Assembly (NCBI GenBank): GCA_964016885.1
Contig: OZ024747.1
Location: forward strand, 63,736,001-63,800,000
Source of the DNA: Eledone cirrhosa
Taxonomy: Eukaryota
Direction of reading: 5' to 3'
DNA length: 64,000 nt
Below are positions 3,456 to 60,487 of the stretch, piece after piece (within the stretch, counting starts at the first letter, position 1; every line of letters starts with the position of its first letter). Made by a program: the position numbers and the translations under genes. A model generated the notes under the pieces. It did not search any database. It was given only the letters and a program-made list of their open reading frames with translations, and was not told where the DNA came from.

Positions 3456-3645
3456 GTACGTTATTCCGGGTTGAATTGGAGGTAACCACAGTAAGTAAGG
3501 TACTCAATACATAGCAGAGTATAAAGGTTTTAATATAGATGAGATTCTACAGGACTAGAACTGTTTCATTCTTTAGAAATCATCAGGAATCAGATTCCTG
3601 ATGATTTCTAAAGAATGAAACAGTTCTAGTCCTGTAGAATCTCAT
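3456..3645 (-). mobile_element. Penelope-like pLTR-type non-autonomous element, family A (tail plus 107-bp palindrome)
   Basis: Flanked by (TA)n on both sides. Perfect 53-bp arms at 3539-3591 and 3593-3645 carry a hammerhead. Partial copies at about 28034-28082, 45712-45777 and 57331-57432. Confidence 0.65.
3592..3642 (+). ncRNA. Type I hammerhead ribozyme motif (mirrored on - strand by palindrome)
   Basis: AGAUUC-CUGAUGA-U-UUC-UAAA-GAA-U-GAAA-CAG-UUCUAGUC-CUG-U-A^GAAUCU. Stem I 6 bp, stem II 3 bp, stem III 4 bp, GUA site at 3634-3636. Confidence 0.8.
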
Positions 3646-7526: not shown

Positions 7527-8556
7527 CATAAGGCACCATTGTATATTTCTTCCATAAATAATACACAAACGGGGCCCAATCAACGTTTCAGCCAATAGCG
7601 TCAAGCAAGCTTCATTCATTACTGTTTGTGTGTATAATTTGAAGAATGCATGTGAGATTTGACTGTTATTTCTACCAGATCAGGTGACCATATTTCAGTT
7701 CTTTATTCATTATAATCTACTATTTAGTGTTATAGTGTGTGTAATAGCAGTTTGGCATGATCACTGTTTGTGTATGTGTGTAGGATTTTGCTGCTATTTC
7801 TACCAGATCAGGTGACCATATTTCAGATTCATTATTCCTAATAGTCTACTATACAGTGTTATAGTGCGTGTAATAACAGTTTGGCATGGTCACTAATGTA
7901 CAGTAATTGACCTATGTGTTACTACAGCGGTAATATGTTATTAAAATACCGCCACACATGACCATTGACATGGAGTTTAAAGAAATTTGCTTCTCTCATA
8001 TCTGATGACCTTTTCTAAAGCTGACAAGAAGTACTGATGTATGAAGGTTGCTTCCAGTTCCAGGAATGGTAATCTTACTTCTTTCTCTCTGTAAATCTTT
8101 TCAACTACTTCAACCTGGAATTATCTTGTAAGTGTTGCATAGTAAATTATGGACTGTAGGGATAGAATAACATAGAGAGGGGAAGAAGGAGAGAGAGAAA
8201 GAGAAATAAAAAATGTAATGCAAGCATTATCTACTGCTCTCTAGAGCACATTTAATCATCATCATCACCATCGTTATCAGCAAAACCATCGTTCTCAAGA
8301 TCAGCAGTGTCCTCACCAGTATCATCAACAATGTCGTCATCATCATCCTCACCATTATCAGAATCATCACCATTATTATCACCAATAATAATAGAGTTTC
8401 ACTCTGTCTATATAGATTGAACATAATAGATATATTAGTTTTATATCCAATTTCATTACACCTGTGTTGTGTTTATTTTGTCTGAACACTAGTTGTTTTA
8501 CAGTAAAGATGATGTCATAGCCTGTGTAAGAACAACGCTGTATCTTTTATTATCAT

Positions 8557-10410
8557 AGTATTACAATAATATCTGTAATAACAACACTACATCCTTCTCT
8601 AGTATTACAATAATCTATGTAATAACAACACTACATCCTTCACTAATATTACAATAATTACTGTAATAATAACACTATATCCTTCAATAGTATTACAATA
8701 ATATCTGTAATAACAACACTATATACTTCTCTAATATTACAATAATCTCTGTAATAACAACACTATATCCTTCTCTAGTATTACAATACTATCTGTAATA
8801 ATAACACTATATCCTTCAATAGTATTACAATAATCTATGTAATAACAACACTATGTCCTTCAATAGTATTACAATAATCTATGTAATAACAACACTATGT
8901 CCTTCAATAGTATTACAATAATATCTGTAATAACAACACTATATCCTTCACTAATATTACAATAATTACTGTAATAGCAACACTATATCCTTCATTAGTA
9001 TTACAATAATCTATGTAATAACAACACTATATCCTTCAATAGTATTACAATAATATCTGTAATAACAACACTATATCCTTCACTAATATTACAATAATTA
9101 CTGTAATAGCAACACTATATCCTTCATTAGTATTACAATAATCTCTGTAATAACAACACTATATCCTTCTCATGTATTACAATAATATCTGTAATAATAA
9201 CACTATATCCTTCTCTAGTATTACAATAATCTCTGTAATAACAACACTATATCCTTCTCTTGTATTACAATAATCTCTGTAATAACAACACTATATCCTT
9301 CTCTAGTATTACAATAATCTCTGTAATAACAACACCATATCCTTCTCTTGTATTACAATAATCTATGTAATAACAACACTATATCCTTCTCTAGTATTAC
9401 AATAATCTCTGTAATAACAACACTATATCCTTCTCTATATTACAATAATCTCTGTAATAACAACACTATATCCTTCTCTTGTATTACAATAATATATGTA
9501 ATAACAAACACTATATCCTTCACTAGTATTACAATAATCTCTGTAATAACAACACTATATGCTTCTCTAGTATTACAATAATTTCTGTAATAACAACACT
9601 ATATCCTTCACTAGTATTACAATAATTTCTGTAATAACAACACTATATCCTTCACTAGTATTACAATAATTTCTGTAATAACAACACTATATCCTTCACT
9701 AGTATTACAATAATCTCTGTAATAACAACACTATATCCTTCACTAGTATTACAATAATTTCTGTAATAACAACACTATATCCTTCACTAGTATTACAATA
9801 ATATATGTAATAACAACACTATATCCTTCACTAGTATTACAATAATATATGTAATAACAACACTATATCCTTCAATAGTATTACAATAATCTATGTAATA
9901 ACAACACTATATCCTTCACTAGTATTACAATAATATATGTAATAACAACACTATATCCTTCAATAGTATTACAATAATATATGTAATAACAACACTATAT
10001 CCTTCACTAGTATTACAATAATATATGTAATAACAACACTATATCCTTCAATAGTATTACAATAATATATGTAATAACAACACTATATCCTTCTCTTGTA
10101 TTACAATAATATATGTAATAACAAACACTATATCCTTCACTAGTATTACAATAATCTCTGTAATAACAACACTATATCCTTCTCTAGTATTACAATAATT
10201 TCTGTAATAACAACACTATATCCTTCACTAGTATTACAATAATTTCTGTAATAACAACACTATATCCTTCTCTTGTATTACAATAATCTCTGTAATAACA
10301 ACACTATATCCTTCTCTTGTATTACAATAATGTATGTAATAACAACACTATATCCTTCACTAGTATTACAATAATCTCTGTAATAACAATATAACAAACA
10401 CTATATCCTG
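8557..10410. repeat. 44-bp minisatellite, about 42 copies
   Basis: Unit tagtattacaataatctctgtaataacaacactatatccttcac; period verified at 8691 and 8735. Confidence 0.97.
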
Positions 10411-22178: not shown

Positions 22179-22817
22179 TAGTTTTGCGAGGTTTTTTATA
22201 TTAAATCGTGTGTCGAAACAAATATTGTTAAACTTGGGGAGGGTCATATTTGTGTAATATTGCCAGAATTAATAACAGAACACACTCACTGTTTGGTTGG
22301 TTTTCGCTTTTCGCTTCTGCGTCCTTTATATCGGTAATCTAATTTACTCGGTCCTCAATGTTGCCATTGACTGACCAACGGTAAAAAATAATACAGATAC
22401 AATATAGACACAAACACATATATATACTTTATCATAAATCTTTTGTTGCACATCTGCAACATCGTCAGTAGTGCTATTGTTTCCTCCCGTTGCATTGTAT
22501 GTCTACGCCATTTTTATTTAGTTAAAAATGGCGTAGACATACAATGCAACGAGAGGAAACAATAGCACCACTGACGATGTTGCAGATGTGCAACGAAAGA
22601 TTTATGATAAACTATATATATGTGTTTGTGTCTATATTGTATCTGTATTATTTTTGACCGTTGGTCAGTCAATGGCAACATTGAGGACCGAGTAAATTAG
22701 ATTACCGATATAAAGGACACAGAAGCGAAAAGCGAAAACCAACCAAACAGTGAGTGTGTTCTGTTATTAATTCTGGCAATATTACACAAATATGACCCTC
22801 CCCAAGTATAACAATAT
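22179..22817. mobile_element. Fold-back element, family D, 295-bp inverted arms
   Basis: Arms 22222-22516 and 22523-22817, no indels and few mismatches, 6-nt loop. (TA)n flanks; contains a hammerhead-like motif. Confidence 0.85.
22567..22608 (+). ncRNA. Degenerate minimal hammerhead motif (family D) inside long palindrome
   Basis: ACCA-CUGACGA-U-GUUGCA-GAUG-UGCAAC-GAAA-GAUU-UA-UGAU. Core and 6-bp stem II are clear; stems I and III are weak. Confidence 0.6.
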
Positions 22818-51123: not shown

Positions 51124-54077
51124 TGTATGTATGTATGTATGTATGTATGCATGCATGTTTTTAGTCCTGCAGGATGTCCAAAGTCACCCTCCTCACCAAG
51201 AAACCTTGGTGGGGTTGCCAGTTTAGTCGCCAACGACCCGACCATGAGACAGGTTGTACTGGGATACAAAACCTGTCAAAGGGCAAAGGAGCTCTTAAGA
51301 GTCAATGGCCATCCAAAATCACCGGGAGAGATGACCCCTTAGCCTTTGTCAAGGCAGAATTCTAGGAGAAGGAAAACTCTGATATAACACCTGCAACCCT
51401 GATGGTATCCATTGATGTTGACTTGTTCTTCTTTTTGGTAAATATCATCTTGGTTAAGAGAGTGGGACTGGCTTTGTGCAGTGCCTTTGCTTACTATAAA
51501 AGCTTCACAGCACAGGCATTGCTTTATATCTGGAGATCTCTCTGCACTTGTCCTCACATGGTACCATGGGCCCAGCACTATGTGTCAATAATTGTCACCA
51601 GTGTAGTGTTTGTACCAGAGTTTTCAAGTCGCTGGCTGGACTGGAGGGTCACACTCGTTCAGCACATCGGTAGGGGTTCTCCTACATGGATATAAAGTAG
51701 TGGCCATACTCGAAAACGAGTTGGCAGCCACCATGTATGTATGTATGTATGTATGTATGTAGATAAATAGATAGATAGATAGATAGCAGGCAGTGAATTG
51801 GCAGAGTCGTTAGAATGTTGGATAGAATGCTTTATGATATTTCTTCCGACTCTCTGCTCTCAGAGTCCAAATCCTGCTAAGGTTGAAAAAAACATACCAG
51901 TCTAGTACTGGGGTCAATTCTTCCTCTTTCTCATTCCCTCTCTCTCACTTTATATCTTTCCCTGGAAGAAATCTGCTGTACTCAGGCCTGGAGAGGGATG
52001 GGCTCCACCAGGCTTAAAATGGCCAAGAAACAGCGTATGTCAATACAGCTCCCCTATGACTCTAACGGGAGTTATGGGACCATACATGCATACATATATA
52101 AACTCCAAAAACGGTTGTTGTAAATTCACTAAGCTATATTTGCCATAAGGAGTGAACACTTCTGATGATTTAGTCACACTTCACTTACATCTTCACATAC
52201 ATACATTCCTGAACATATATTTACCTTGAGTGTGTAAACCTATCAATATTTATTCACTGAAATTTCATGACATGAAGTTAAATACTAAACATTGTTGGTT
52301 ATTTAAACAAATATCGTTTCCTCTTCCTAAACAAAGATTAATTTGTTGAAAGATCACGGTTAAGAGGTGTCTATAATGAATTGTGTTATAAGTGGTAATT
52401 TATCTTATTTACAGGAATTTAATATTCTTAGAACTAACTGGCTGTCTAGTCTTTATTTCTCTAAAGGCCATATAATTAGCTAGAGGTCATACATACTATT
52501 ACCATTCTACTATATCTAGCTTAAAATTTTAATCATATTTTTCTGTGAGTTTGTTGTTTTTTGTTGGTGATTTTTTTTTGTCATAATATATTTAAAGGTT
52601 TATTCACAATTGTATTAATAACATTACAAATTATTCATAATTTTTACAGAATGAAAATAAACACAAATAATATATACAATACTTAACAAATATATAAGAT
52701 TAAACTAAACGACCATGAATTGACCACCTAGTGTAACAATTGACTGCATTTCATAAGGGACAACGGAACAATTTGAAGCAAGCCAACATGCTCGCAACAT
52801 TACCATGGGTGATGGTGAATTTAAGGCGCTGTTGTTATATTCTATAGCTGACTGCTGTTTCACGGTGACAACCAAGAAATACTGTTACAATCTTGGGGTT
52901 GTTTTAAAAATAATTTTTTTTTTTTAAATTATATTCCCTATTGATTTTTATGCTAAGTTACTTTAGTTCGACTGGTTTTATTGAGAATAAAGCCCTGTGA
53001 ACATGTAAATATGTAGTAGTGATAATATTGCTAACTAATTAAAAAGGTGAAATCATAAGTGTTATAAAATATAGAATTGTATAGTGAAGAAATAGAAAAT
53101 ATGGTCATTATAAATCTGTGTAATTTATCAATTTGACTGTAATTAATTTAGTTTAACCTTAATTCTTCACATACTGTAAAGATTTAGCAGAGACTGTATA
53201 AAAGCAGCTTCGTAAATTCAAATGTTTCTAGTATTTTTTCTAGTTGAAAGATTATTGTGAAACTTTAGAGTAATACAGTCATAATTGTTTCTATTTTAGG
53301 CACAAGGCCAGCAATTACCCAGTACATTACTGGTACTTTATTTTATCGACCCCGTAAGAATGAAAGGCAAAGTTAACCTCGGCCGGATTTGAACTCAGAT
53401 CGTAAAGGGACGTAACTATGCTGGAAAGCATGTCCGACCCTCTACCGATACTGCCAATTCAAATGCTGTTATATACTTTACAACAATGCTTTGCTAATGC
53501 GGTTTCATGTGGTACAGGATGTTAAAAGTTAATATGTTAATCACATGCATACAAATATGTATCCTTGTGGTTGTATGTAATTTTCTAGACTTAGACAATC
53601 CATTTGATATGGTTAGTTCAGTATGGCTTTTTAATAGGCAAGTCACTTGGTAAAACAAAATGGTTCACTTAGTACAATATATATCTCCAACAATTTTAGG
53701 TATATTCTGTACCACCAGATGTATAACCAGGACTTCAGCTTACTTTCATAATGTTTGAGTTGAGTTACATTTGAAGATGTATATAAAATATGTTAGTAAG
53801 TGATATGGAGAGTCCAACAGTCTACTGAAGAATATTTTCACTGATGCCACCATAAAAATCACTCTGTAAAATGTTAGTACTGAAATCATGATAAAATGCT
53901 CCCAGTACATGCTGTAAAATGATTGGTATTAAGAAGTGCACCCAGCTAAAGAATCTGCTAAAATGGAGTATAAGAGCAAAAGGTGGTTACCTCATTAGTC
54001 TAGCATCAAATGTGACAATCAGTCTAACCTACACAAGCATAGAAAATAGATAGCAAACAGTGGTGATGATGATGGTG

Positions 54078-56943: not shown

Positions 56944-57037
56944 ACACAACAAGACTAAAAAAACCTCATGAGGTTGATGGAAGGGATTACCATTTTGTAT
57001 CAAGAGATGAAATGGAGAAAGGTATTTTACTAAACAG
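56944..57037 (+). CDS. MPP7: MPP7-like exon E, GK-like GMP-binding subdomain
   Basis: Acceptor tatctttcag|, donor CAG|gtatga. 94 nt. Translates (Y)TTRLKKPHEVDGRDYHFVSRDEMEKGILLN(R), with the guanylate-kinase signature TTR..E.DG.DY.F. Confidence 0.97.
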
Positions 57038-57428
57038 GTATGAATATAATATACAAATATATTGATACACAAATACATACATACACACACATAAACACAC
57101 ATGCACACTCGCATAAACACATATACAAGCACATACATATATGGCACATGTGTGTTTAGGGTCCATTAAAGAGGATTCAACCAGTATTCAAACATTTGCA
57201 AGATTATTAGTTTGGTACATTACTACTTCTATGATTCTTCCTTTTTCCTCAACTGATCCACAAATATATATAACATGTGTATGTAAATATAATATCTATA
57301 TATATATATAAATATGTGTGTGTGTGTGTGTCCGGGTTCAATCAAGGGTAACCACAGTAAGTAAGGTACTCAATACATAATTTCCTTTGAATGAAAAAGT
57401 TCTAGTCTTGTAGAAGCCATTTCTATAT

Positions 57429-57462
<34 letters not shown>

Positions 57463-58994
57463 TGTGTGTGTGCGCACATGTAAATATTTATATGTATATA
57501 TATATATATATTTATATATATATACACATATATGTGTGTGTGTGTGTGTGTGCGTGCACGTGTAAATATTTATATGTATATATATATATATATGTATATA
57601 TATATGTATATATATATACACATATATATGTGTGTCTGTGTGTGTGTGTGTGTGCATGCACGTGTAAATATTTATATGTAAATATATATATAATATAAAT
57701 ATAATATATATATAATATAAATATAATATATATATAATATAAATATAATATATATATAATATACAATACACACACACACATATATAAATGTGTGTGTGTG
57801 TATATAAATATATATAGAGAGAAAGGGGCTAGGGAGATAGTGAATACCTAGTGAAGTAGTGAATATGAATTGTTCTAGACTTCAATGGCAAACCAAAGAG
57901 TTTTGCATGGAAACCAACTCTAATCAGTATTTGATCAAATTTATTCCATCCTTTCACTATTGAACGAAAATACTACCTTATTTACATATTTAAATAAAGA
58001 GAAAAAATTATTTAAATAACTTAAATGTCTTGCGGAGATTAAAAATGAATTTCTTGCTAAAAAAATTGTTTATATAATATAGGCTGAACAATGCCTGTTG
58101 CTATGAAGGTTTTTTTAAAAAATATTTCTATTCTTTTATTTGTTTCATTTAATAAAGTGTGGCCATACTGGAGCATCACTTCATGTTGATCATTTCAACT
58201 CCTCTATATATTTCATTGATCTCTATTTTTTGTCAAAACATTAAGTTACTGGATGTTAACAATAATATGCCTACACCCACATATACCTACACGTGCATAT
58301 GCCTACACAAACATATCTACACAGACATATACCTACTCAGACATATGCCTAGATGTACATATACCTACACAGATATGTCTACACGCACACATGTCTAAAC
58401 ACACACGTCTACACATACATATGTCTACACAAACATATGCCTACATACACATACGCCTATACGCACATAAGCCTACACATGTGTATGCCTGCACACATAT
58501 ATGCCTACTCACACACAGGGCCTATGAGAGGGGTCGTCCAGTCAGTACTTTGTTCTGGGGGCCAAAACCTAAGAAGACCCCACAGCAATCATGCAACATC
58601 ATTTTGAGAAAAATCTTTGCCTGCTTTGGGCCCCATATGGCTGCAAAGTAGATTCCTTAACCACACAGTTTTGGTTAAAAAGCAAACAAACAAAAAAAAA
58701 ATCGTTATCAATAAGATCTAGTAGATTAGGGTTATTATTTTTTGTTTATTGAAAGAAGTATTATTGTACAAAGAAAAGTAATTATAGCCACCACAATTCT
58801 AATAAAGAAACGTAAATTTATTCCAATATTTCAGATTTTGACCTTTTTAATTTCACAGTCAGAGATTATTAAAGTTCAAAATACTGAATATATTTATTCT
58901 TCCCTTTATAGAGTATTGTGTGGGATTTTCATATCTTTTTTCTTATAATTAATTCATATTTATATTAAAATTAGTTGTGACGATACCATAAGCA

Positions 58995-59135
58995 ATGGTG
59001 TATATACTATTATTGATAGTGTATATATTAAAATTATTTGTGTACATATTATAATTAATAGTGTATATATTAAAATTATTTGTGTACATATTATAATTAA
59101 TAGTGTATATATTAAAATTATTTGTGTATATATTA
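58995..59135. repeat. 42-bp tandem repeat, about 3 copies
   Basis: Unit atagtgtatatattaaaattatttgtgtacatattataatta. Confidence 0.85.
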
Positions 59136-59280
59136 TCATAGAATAACAATGAATGTTTCAACCTAACTATGGGTTTTCTCTCCTTCCCTCTCTCTCTCTC
59201 TTCTGGGGGAAGACAGTATTTCTTCCTCTTTCCCTTATCCACATCCCCCCTCTCTCTCTATATATACATATATATAAATA

Positions 59281-59332
<52 letters not shown>

Positions 59333-59360
59333 TCTCTTTCTCTCTCTATATATATATAAA

Positions 59361-59404
<44 letters not shown>

Positions 59405-59407
<3 letters not shown>

Positions 59408-59794
59408 TTCATCATCATTTCATTTTACGTCCACTTTTCCCTGCTTGCAAGGGTGGGACAGGAACTGATTCTGGCTTGATTTCTACAGCTGGATGCCCTT
59501 CCTAACACCAACCTCATTTACAGTGAGTGCTGGGTGCTTTTTTTCCGTGGCGCCTACACGTCCACTTTACAGAGTGGGCTGGGTGCTTTTTTGCCGTGGT
59601 ACCTCCACGACCACTTTACAGTGGAATGATAGGGACCCCAGTCCCTAGCATCTTATTTCTACAGCTGAGTAAACTGGAGCAATGTGAAATAAAGTGTCTT
59701 GCTCAAGGAAACAACACATCACCCGGTCTGAGAATTGAACTCACAACCTTTCGATTGCAAGGCCAATGCTCTAACCACTTAGCCATGTACCTCC
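59405..59794 (-). mobile_element. tRNA-derived SINE family 1, full length
   Basis: Reverse copy with a duplicated aagcacccag...ctgtaaa internal unit. Confidence 0.85.
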
Positions 59795-60074
59795 ACATAT
59801 ATATATACATATGGAAAAGAATGAAACAAAATTTCATTTCTCACTCTTAATACGGCTGATGCCTAAATATAAGTATTTATGCATACATACATATATGTGT
59901 ACAGACGTACAGTAGTATGTATATATATACATACATGCACACATATATATATGTATGTATGGGTTTACCAAACATTTATTATAATGTTCGGTTTGTTTGT
60001 AAACAAACAGCCCGAATTACGCCGTACAGTGCTCAGCAATGACCGTCGCCCTTTTGTTCAACACTGACACAGGA

Positions 60075-60117
60075 ACGATGTACTAGTTTCAAGCTTATTA
60101 GCTATCATCAGCATCGT
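60075..60117 (-). ncRNA. Intact minimal type I hammerhead ribozyme
   Basis: Minus strand reads ACGAUG-CUGAUGA-U-AGCU-AAUA-AGCU-U-GAAA-CUAG-U-A^CAUCGU. Perfect 6-bp stem I, full core, 4-bp stem II, palindromic stem III (ACUAGU), GUA cleavage triplet. Confidence 0.88.
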
Positions 60118-60378
60118 ATACCTTTCTGTCAGATGATTGAACGTGTGAAAGTATATACTTTCCTTATGCATATTAACAGCTGAGCAGCCTAATTTGCATA
60201 TCGAGTGAGTTAGTAGGCCGGGCAATATATATATATTTATATATATATCTTCCATTCTTTATCTATCATTCACCCACTCTATATCCATCTCTTTCTCTAT
60301 TATATATATATGTGTATGTATATAAATTCCCCTGACTAACTTTATATATATTTGTCTTATATATTTCTATTTCCTAAG

Positions 60379-60487
60379 ATTTGTTGAGTATGGCGAGTAT
60401 AAAGGGAATTTGTATGGCTCAAGCATTGATTCCATAAAATGTGTGATCAACTCAGGAAAAGTGTGTGTCTTAACTCCACATACACAG
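60379..60487 (+). CDS. MPP7: MPP7-like exon F, GK-like domain
   Basis: Acceptor tttcctaag|, donor CAG|gtaaaa. 109 nt. Translates (R)FVEYGEYKGNLYGSSIDSIKCVINSGKVCVLTPHTQ. Confidence 0.96.

What the first reader, a model, noticed from the sequence alone, without database searches (positions are those of the whole stretch)
59960..60225. Fully intact minimal hammerhead ribozyme antisense to the gene, about 260 nt upstream of exon F
Seen: minus-strand ACGAUG CUGAUGA U AGCU AAUA AGCU U GAAA CUAG UA^CAUCGU, with every core nucleotide and a perfect 6-bp stem I. An AATAAA lies about 100 nt downstream on the same strand. Established: loopless palindromic stem III motifs of PLE-type hammerheads cleave as dimers. 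Inference: this motif is catalytically competent as a dimer, cutting between 60081 and 60080. Stem II is also self-complementary (AGCU/AGCU).
Basis: partly seen in the sequence, partly recalled or inferred. Interest (0 to 1): 0.85.

Follow-up and report, generated by a model that had tools for sequence, protein, structure and literature searches.

The report
Hammerhead in an abundant retrozyme repeat
The self-cutting-RNA motif is real, but it is one lone, ageing copy of a roughly 430-base jumping repeat with about 15,000 copies in this animal genome; it likely cuts only in pairs, likely travels with Penelope-type retrotransposons, and lies on the wrong strand to cut the host gene's RNA, so it is an ordinary member of a known kind.

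Summary
The motif is there as described (minus strand 60117-60075), 262 nt upstream of a guanylate-kinase-domain exon and antisense to it. It belongs to a ~430-bp non-coding repeat (60224-59811). A 44-nt pattern has 14,635 exact matches, and an intact core is the norm (26 of 30 copies). Copies form head-to-tail tandems and back-to-back arms, end in (TA)n, and usually carry a ~60-nt tail on one arm only (23 of 39 two-armed loci): the Penelope-like footprint. A homologous 466-469-bp sister family shows compensatory changes in stems I and II. Two corrections. The ribozyme is not 'minimal': it has the extended type I layout of animal retrozymes. It is not 'fully intact': pair 10.1-11.1 is U·U, G-C in the sister family, with a precedent in axolotl HHR_Amex2. 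The window copy has no partner in cis, so dimer cleavage here is unlikely. Cleavage, expression and circles are untested, and no autonomous parent was found. The scan has reported sister families in this genome before. New member of a known kind.

The parts
59811..60224 (-). Single copy (414 of ~429-430 nt) of a non-coding retrozyme / non-autonomous Penelope-like repeat; lacks the ~16-nt unit junction
   Evidence: BLAST against 29 relatives; 95.1% over 412 nt to a natural tandem unit, and the only copy in the window
60064..60132 (-). Extended type I hammerhead: outer 6-bp and 3-bp helices, UAU/U internal loop, 6-bp stem I, core, U·U plus 4-bp stem II, palindromic stem III
60082..60087 (-). Palindrome ACUAGU (A15.1 to U16.1), predicted to form stem III only between two ribozymes
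   Evidence: invariant in 11 of 11 lineage representatives; monomer pairing probability 0.0
60080..60081 (-). Predicted cleavage site after G-U-A17
   Evidence: position in the core; not tested
60192..60199 (-). Octamer-like ATGCAAAT, likely part of an internal promoter (motif name recalled)
   Evidence: invariant in 8 of 8 aligned units including the sister family
60152..60157 (-). TATA-like TATATA upstream of the ribozyme (role inferred)
59968..59991 (-). Conserved hairpin whose loop and 3' arm hold the AATAAA (59980-59975); the hexamer itself varies (AATAAG in L091, AGTAAA in the sister family)
59811..59870 (-). 60-nt 'tail' between the family's two preferred 3' ends; this copy ends at the long end
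60225..60248 (.). TA-rich run at the 5' junction (target microsatellite, inferred)
59797..59810 (.). TA-rich run at the 3' junction (target microsatellite, inferred)
56944..57037 (+). Host-gene exon (guanylate kinase domain, profile 32-64), upstream of the intron 57038-60378
60379..60487 (+). Host-gene exon 'F' (guanylate kinase domain, profile 67-101); joins the upstream exon in phase

Best explanation
This is one solitary copy of an abundant ~430-bp non-coding repeat with a type I hammerhead, likely a non-LTR retrozyme that is copied into (TA)n runs by a Penelope-like (Neptune/Nematis-type) reverse transcriptase-endonuclease. In tandem source copies the unit would be transcribed from its own octamer/TATA-like promoter, neighbouring ribozymes would pair through the ACUAGU palindrome and cut at a modest rate (weakened by U·U at 10.1-11.1), and unit or multimer RNA, possibly circular, would be reverse-transcribed from two fixed priming sites about 60 nt apart. 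The copy in this window has no partner in cis, is decaying (10 differences in 265 columns from its closest relatives, four of them CpG-type), lies antisense in an intron, and most likely does nothing for the gene. Shown: sequence, copy number, architecture, covariation. Inferred: promoter, cleavage, circles, identity of the helper.
For: Copy number 9,994 and 14,635. Tandem periods 420-430 and one of 526; 12 of 12 inverted clusters are back to back. Of 39 two-armed loci, 23 pair a short with a tailed end, 4 short-short, 0 tail-tail, 12 have an unclassed end; 3' ends run into (TA)n. These match the inverted 5'-truncated copy, one-sided tail and (TA)n bias described for PLEs (PMC8557442, passages). 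The sister family (10,379 pattern matches, 98 of the first 100 listed) is homologous along the unit with core and palindrome invariant and 9 of 22 pairs changed on both sides; 95% of cells paired, 34-46% when slid. One of 8 GIY-YIG families carries a hammerhead with the same U·U base and a loopless palindrome downstream of its ORF (8 of 10 loci), with an AATAAA about 100 nt on and two 3' ends about 45 nt apart. Precedent for U·U and dimer action: axolotl HHR_Amex2 (PMC7229834 section 15). Double-hammerhead dimer -40.4 kcal/mol vs 2 x -18.6. A young subfamily (0.3-0.7% from its nearest copies) keeps U·U.
Against: No autonomous element with a homologous terminal repeat among 70 of 150 scored GIY-YIG loci. 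5' ends of copies show no peak at the cut (9 of 175 within -8 to +11; the middle of the output was cut). The within-array variant test for a single circular template was inconclusive: one array of 14 shows a private variant in both arms, while 7 of 14 have units less like each other than like outside copies. Most loci show one ribozyme (54 of 71 clusters, an over-count since the pattern is exact). A competing dimer with swapped stem II folds as well (-40.6). Only 1 of 9 predicted Xenopus retrozyme dimers cleaved in vitro (10.64898/2026.07.22.740005). The covariation rests on two families and a few subfamilies, and the structure was drawn from these sequences.
Confidence: 0.8

Rival explanations
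1. The unit is the solo or tandem pseudo-LTR of an autonomous Penelope-like element not yet found, and the hammerhead is a PLE pLTR ribozyme rather than a retrozyme's.
For: Same layout as the terminal repeat of an autonomous family here: TATA-like box, U·U hammerhead with loopless palindrome, AATAAA, two ends. Li et al. 2026 derive retrozymes from pLTRs.
Against: Tandem units join directly with no ORF; masked flanks of 60 loci showed no shared block at a fixed place upstream in the rows printed; no homologous pLTR in 70 GIY-YIG loci.
Confidence: 0.1
2. The ribozyme of this family is catalytically near-dead (U·U or C·A at 10.1-11.1) and is kept as a folded signal for the helper protein; copies arise from uncut read-through RNA.
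For: Most copies span the site uncut and 5' ends do not peak at it; G10.1-C11.1 is called highly conserved in PMC4209133; 8 of 9 tested dimers were inactive; the G-C sister family shows much longer arrays in the listings.
Against: Core and palindrome are invariant across two families while stems turn over; the U·U axolotl ribozyme cleaves (22% as monomer in one hour, more as dimer).
Confidence: 0.25
3. One reading: this particular copy is an active, gene-relevant ribozyme that processes an antisense transcript ending at the AATAAA.
For: Core, stems, octamer, TATA-like box and AATAAA are all intact in this copy.
Against: No partner in the window; an intact core is shared by 26 of 30 copies, and core decay (3/319) is not distinguishable from non-core decay (33/1740; p = 0.35); CpG-type decay in this copy; about 44% of Xenopus retrozyme copies lie in introns anyway.
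Confidence: 0.03

Closest known systems
Metazoan non-LTR retrozymes, especially axolotl Rtz353 / HHR_Amex2 (Cervera and de la Pena 2020, PMC7229834; passages and sections 14, 15, 17 read)
   Same: Non-coding low-GC (37%) unit in tandem, one type I hammerhead per unit with extended helix I, U·U at the base of helix II, weak helix III, strongly self-paired fold (z -9.9 as a circle against 40 shuffles, partly from microsatellite), thousands of copies.
   Different: Helix III has a 2-nt rather than a 4-nt loop; the unit is slightly longer than their ~170-400 nt; inverted arms are not mentioned in that text ('inverted' 0 occurrences); circular RNA and cleavage are not shown here.
Retrozymes as non-autonomous Penelope-like derivatives (Li, Clavereau, Pollet 2026, 10.64898/2026.07.22.740005; parts 1-3 of 5 read, supplements closed)
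   Same: Co-occurs with PLEs; monomers, dimers and multimers; intronic monomers are common; unit length within their 51-972 bp.
   Different: They show sequence homology to pLTRs in Xenopus; here no homologous pLTR was found, and the link rests on the integration footprint. Their sample is mostly vertebrate.
min-HHRs of Penelope-like elements (Cervera and de la Pena 2014, PMC4209133; parts 1-2 of 4 read)
   Same: Type I core with palindromic 15.2-16.2, dimer requirement, scattered single copies and opposite-strand pairs 100-700 bp apart.
   Different: min-HHRs have helix II of 7-8 bp, helix I of 4-5 bp, a single extra nucleotide after A9 and G10.1-C11.1; none of these holds here.
Canonical EN+ Penelope-like elements, Neptune/Nematis type (Craig et al. 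2021, PMC8557442; passages read)
   Same: Partial tandems, inverted 5'-truncated copy, tail at one end only, (TA)n target.
   Different: No ORF; the tail is about 60 nt rather than 30-40.

Membership tests
Type I hammerhead ribozyme | Core CUGANGA / GAAA / UH with three helices | tested here: met
   helix III only as a dimer
Type I hammerhead ribozyme | G10.1-C11.1 pair | tested here: not met
   U·U here, C·A in a subfamily, G-C in the sister family; U·U has a cleaving precedent
Type I hammerhead ribozyme | Rfam gathering score | tested here: not met
   HH9 21.2 bits vs 52; sister family 37.7 bits
Type I hammerhead ribozyme | Mg2+-dependent self-cleavage after H17 | not testable with these tools
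   needs an in vitro assay
PLE minimal hammerhead (min-HHR) | Palindromic 15.2-16.2 with no stable helix III | tested here: met
PLE minimal hammerhead (min-HHR) | Long helix II (7-8 bp), short helix I (4-5 bp) with poorly defined loop 1 | tested here: not met
   helix II 4 bp, helix I 6 bp with a covarying extension (definitions)
Non-LTR retrozyme | Non-coding tandem unit with one type I hammerhead each, many dispersed copies | tested here: met
Non-LTR retrozyme | [quoted passage not shown] | tested here: not met
   not met by the window copy; met by other family loci, 8 of 71 clusters
Non-LTR retrozyme | Expressed as linear and circular unit RNA | not testable with these tools
   no RNA holder listed
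Non-autonomous Penelope-like element | Partial tandem plus inverted 5' copy, one-sided tail, microsatellite target | tested here: met
Non-autonomous Penelope-like element | Sequence homology to an autonomous PLE end | tested here: inconclusive
   none in 70 of 150 scored GIY-YIG loci, of 10,597 candidates

The most novel reading that the evidence does not exclude
The 430-bp family and its 466-469-bp sister are circular-RNA retrozymes written into the genome by Neptune-type Penelope machinery from two fixed priming sites, and together they form a natural G-C to U·U to C·A series at hammerhead pair 10.1-11.1 that tunes cleavage and thereby array length. That would give direct genomic evidence for the proposed but unshown PLE-driven rolling reverse transcription of animal retrozymes.
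Probability: 0.25. Interest if true: 0.55.

Novelty: new member of a known kind. Interest (0 to 1): 0.25.

Why it matters
The locus itself matters little: it is one of about 15,000 passengers. The family is a usable test set. Its insertions carry the Penelope integration footprint although the ribozyme is of the retrozyme type, which supports the helper hypothesis of PMC7229834 and of Li et al. 2026 in an invertebrate. The G-C, U·U and C·A variants in one homologous scaffold allow a clean measurement of how pair 10.1-11.1 sets dimer cleavage. My paper searches found no description of such a family in octopus, but the organism label is not established here and most subscription papers are not held.

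Tried and rejected
Rfam at gathering score: nothing. RNA runs: no RNA holder listed; three runs of unknown kind from one sample, held as contigs, cover the repeat and say nothing on ends or expression. Search for the autonomous parent: masked flanks of 60 loci (first 121 rows printed), 20 wider regions and 70 GIY-YIG loci gave no ORF joined to the unit; copies near L085, L210 and L227 look like independent insertions. 5' ends at the cut site: no peak (one search crashed and was fixed). Circle test by shared private variants: inconclusive. Selection on the core after insertion: not detectable (p = 0.35; one of 30 copies with an indel dropped from the per-site count). A>G excess among rare variants of the 29 closest copies: 12 A>G vs 4 T>C, too few to call editing. 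One search had a pattern bug and was redone. A flank-anchored pattern gave only 502 matches because it selects the window's subfamily. Lunse et al. on dimer cleavage of small PLE hammerheads could not be read; I rely on the review PMC6765202 (passages). A paper search for 10.1/11.1 mismatches with Penelope gave 0. Rejected: chance motif; a role for the AGCU palindrome; AATAAA as a fixed family signal (it varies, and copies end 110-170 nt beyond it without poly(A)).

Full report
Observation. The minus strand carries the motif exactly as written: stem I arms 60117-60112 and 60080-60075, CUGAUGA 60111-60105, stem II 60103-60092, GAAA 60090-60087, CUAG-U-A to 60081, and AATAAA at 59980-59975. Three plus-strand exons match successive parts of the guanylate kinase domain (Pfam PF00625: profile 32-64, 68-101 and, weakly, 102-143, which scanned 138 of 597 plus-strand frames). 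The first two, 56944-57037 and 60379-60487, join in phase, so the motif is antisense in intron 57038-60378, 262 nt from the exon. That the gene is a MAGUK is recalled, not tested.

It is a repeat. A 201-nt query found 3,666 candidates, the best 39 others at 95-97%. An exact 33-mer has 9,994 matches, reversed control 0; a 44-nt pattern with free stem II has 14,635. Alignment to 29 relatives bounds the window copy at 60224-59811, between TA-rich runs. The natural unit is 420-430 bp, 526 in a microsatellite-expanded form, with no ORF. The window holds one copy only.

Architecture of the copies. Among the first 100 places listed there are 71 clusters: 54 single, 8 with tandems, 12 with inverted pairs, all 12 back to back; exact matching over-counts singles. 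In 92 loci (10 overlapping or foreign loci left out), 3' ends pile up at two sites about 60 nt apart, both running into (TA)n, and 5' ends are scattered with no peak at the cut (part of the output was cut). Of 39 two-armed loci, 23 pair a short with a tailed end, 4 are short-short, none tail-tail, and 12 have an unclassed end. Craig et al. 2021 (PMC8557442, passages) describe partial tandems, an inverted 5'-truncated copy, a 30-40-bp tail at one end and (TA)n bias for Penelope-like elements.

The ribozyme. Stem I continues through a UAU/U loop into 3-bp and 6-bp helices, and the region aligns full length to Rfam HH9 below cut-off (21.2 bits). A sister family of 466-469 bp (10,379 matches to a joint pattern, 98 of the first 100 listed) aligns along the unit, including the octamer-like box, and scores 37.7 bits. 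Across 11 representatives that I chose by subfamily, core and ACUAGU are invariant, 95% of cells pair, 9 of 22 pairs change on both sides, 0 of 500 shuffles reach the covariation score, 64 of 500 reach the pair count, and slid controls pair 34-46%. The sequences are related, so this is support and not a probability. The stretch between A9 and G12 is 14 nt in both families, which fixes the register: the flanking U's are 10.1 and 11.1, G-C in the sister and C·A in a further subfamily. By the definitions in PMC4209133 (parts 1-2) this is the canonical metazoan layout and not a min-HHR. Axolotl HHR_Amex2 has the same U·U, cleaves 22% in an hour as a monomer and better as a dimer (PMC7229834 section 15). 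In folding, stem III has probability 0.0 in the monomer; the double hammerhead is -40.4 kcal/mol against 2 x -18.6, and a rival stem-II-swapped dimer is -40.6. A cis dimer is plausible, a trans dimer marginal.

This copy is not special. Of 30 copies picked by flanks only, 26 have an intact core; core and non-core decay do not differ (3/319 vs 33/1740, p = 0.35). The window copy differs from the column majority of its 29 closest relatives at 10 of 265 columns, four of them C-to-T at CpG, including position 7. A much younger subfamily exists and keeps U·U (L247, L249: 0.3-0.7% from the nearest outside copy).

Helper. GIY-YIG has 10,597 candidates, 150 scored. [quoted passage not shown] Of 70 such loci in 8 families none has an end homologous to the unit. 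One family has, 635-706 nt past the endonuclease start, a hammerhead with U·U and a loopless palindrome in 8 of 10 loci, with TATA-like box, AATAAA about 100 nt on, and two 3' ends about 45 nt apart (2 short, 3 long of 5 printed). This shows the same design in an autonomous element but does not name the helper.

Against and open. No RNA evidence could be had. The test for one circular template was inconclusive. Li et al. 2026 (parts 1-3 of 5; supplements closed, and they may list comparable families) already argue that animal retrozymes are non-autonomous PLE derivatives, find about 44% of Xenopus copies in introns, and saw cleavage in only 1 of 9 dimers. So catalytic competence is likely for the family's design but far from certain, and unlikely to operate at this lone copy.

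Comparison and verdict. It works like a non-LTR retrozyme moved by Penelope-type machinery. The family meets the sequence and architecture criteria; the window copy fails the two-unit criterion; circles and cleavage are untested. Earlier notes of this scan describe 310-, 467-, 478- and 561-bp families of the same kind in this genome; a look-up by sequence and by place found nothing for this 430-bp family. Paper searches for octopus with hammerhead or Penelope found no description; the organism is not established here. New member of a known kind; interest 0.25.

Noticed in passing
window 22571-22598 (+) and 42943-42915 (-): Hammerhead cores with 6-bp stem II and G10.1-C11.1 but no palindrome after GAAA; both recur in other loci. 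They may be the scrambled-order families of earlier scan notes.
   Followed up: no
window 3564-3620: Fold-back pair of a hammerhead-like motif with U·U at the base of stem II, ending in (TA)n; the same family occurs in L097, L100 and L215.
   Followed up: partly
window 50725-50684 (-): Hammerhead-like core of another repeat family with a TA-rich stem III region; relatives in L044, L046, L108.
   Followed up: no
window 59791-59724 (-): tRNA-like head (Rfam tRNA 25.2 bits, below cut-off) of a high-copy SINE-like repeat that abuts the 3' end of the element.
   Followed up: no
L172:1433-1511 and places listed: Subfamily of the 430-bp repeat with C·A at 10.1-11.1, U7 and a GUU site.
   Followed up: partly
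L150-L170 (G000:C1:5738326-5752444): Sister-family array of 31 units on one arm and one ribozyme on the opposite arm.
   Followed up: no
L092:3309-6122, L094:1775-5062: Long open Penelope-like frames (938 and 1096 codons stop to stop) with RT and C-terminal GIY-YIG; no standard hammerhead core near them in the fetched DNA.
   Followed up: partly
window 8556-10389: Tandem array of a 44-bp unit, 41.7 copies, 93% matches.
   Followed up: no
window 51500-51670 (+): Isolated C2H2 zinc-finger match (PF13912, E 1.1e-05), upstream of the guanylate kinase exons.
   Followed up: no
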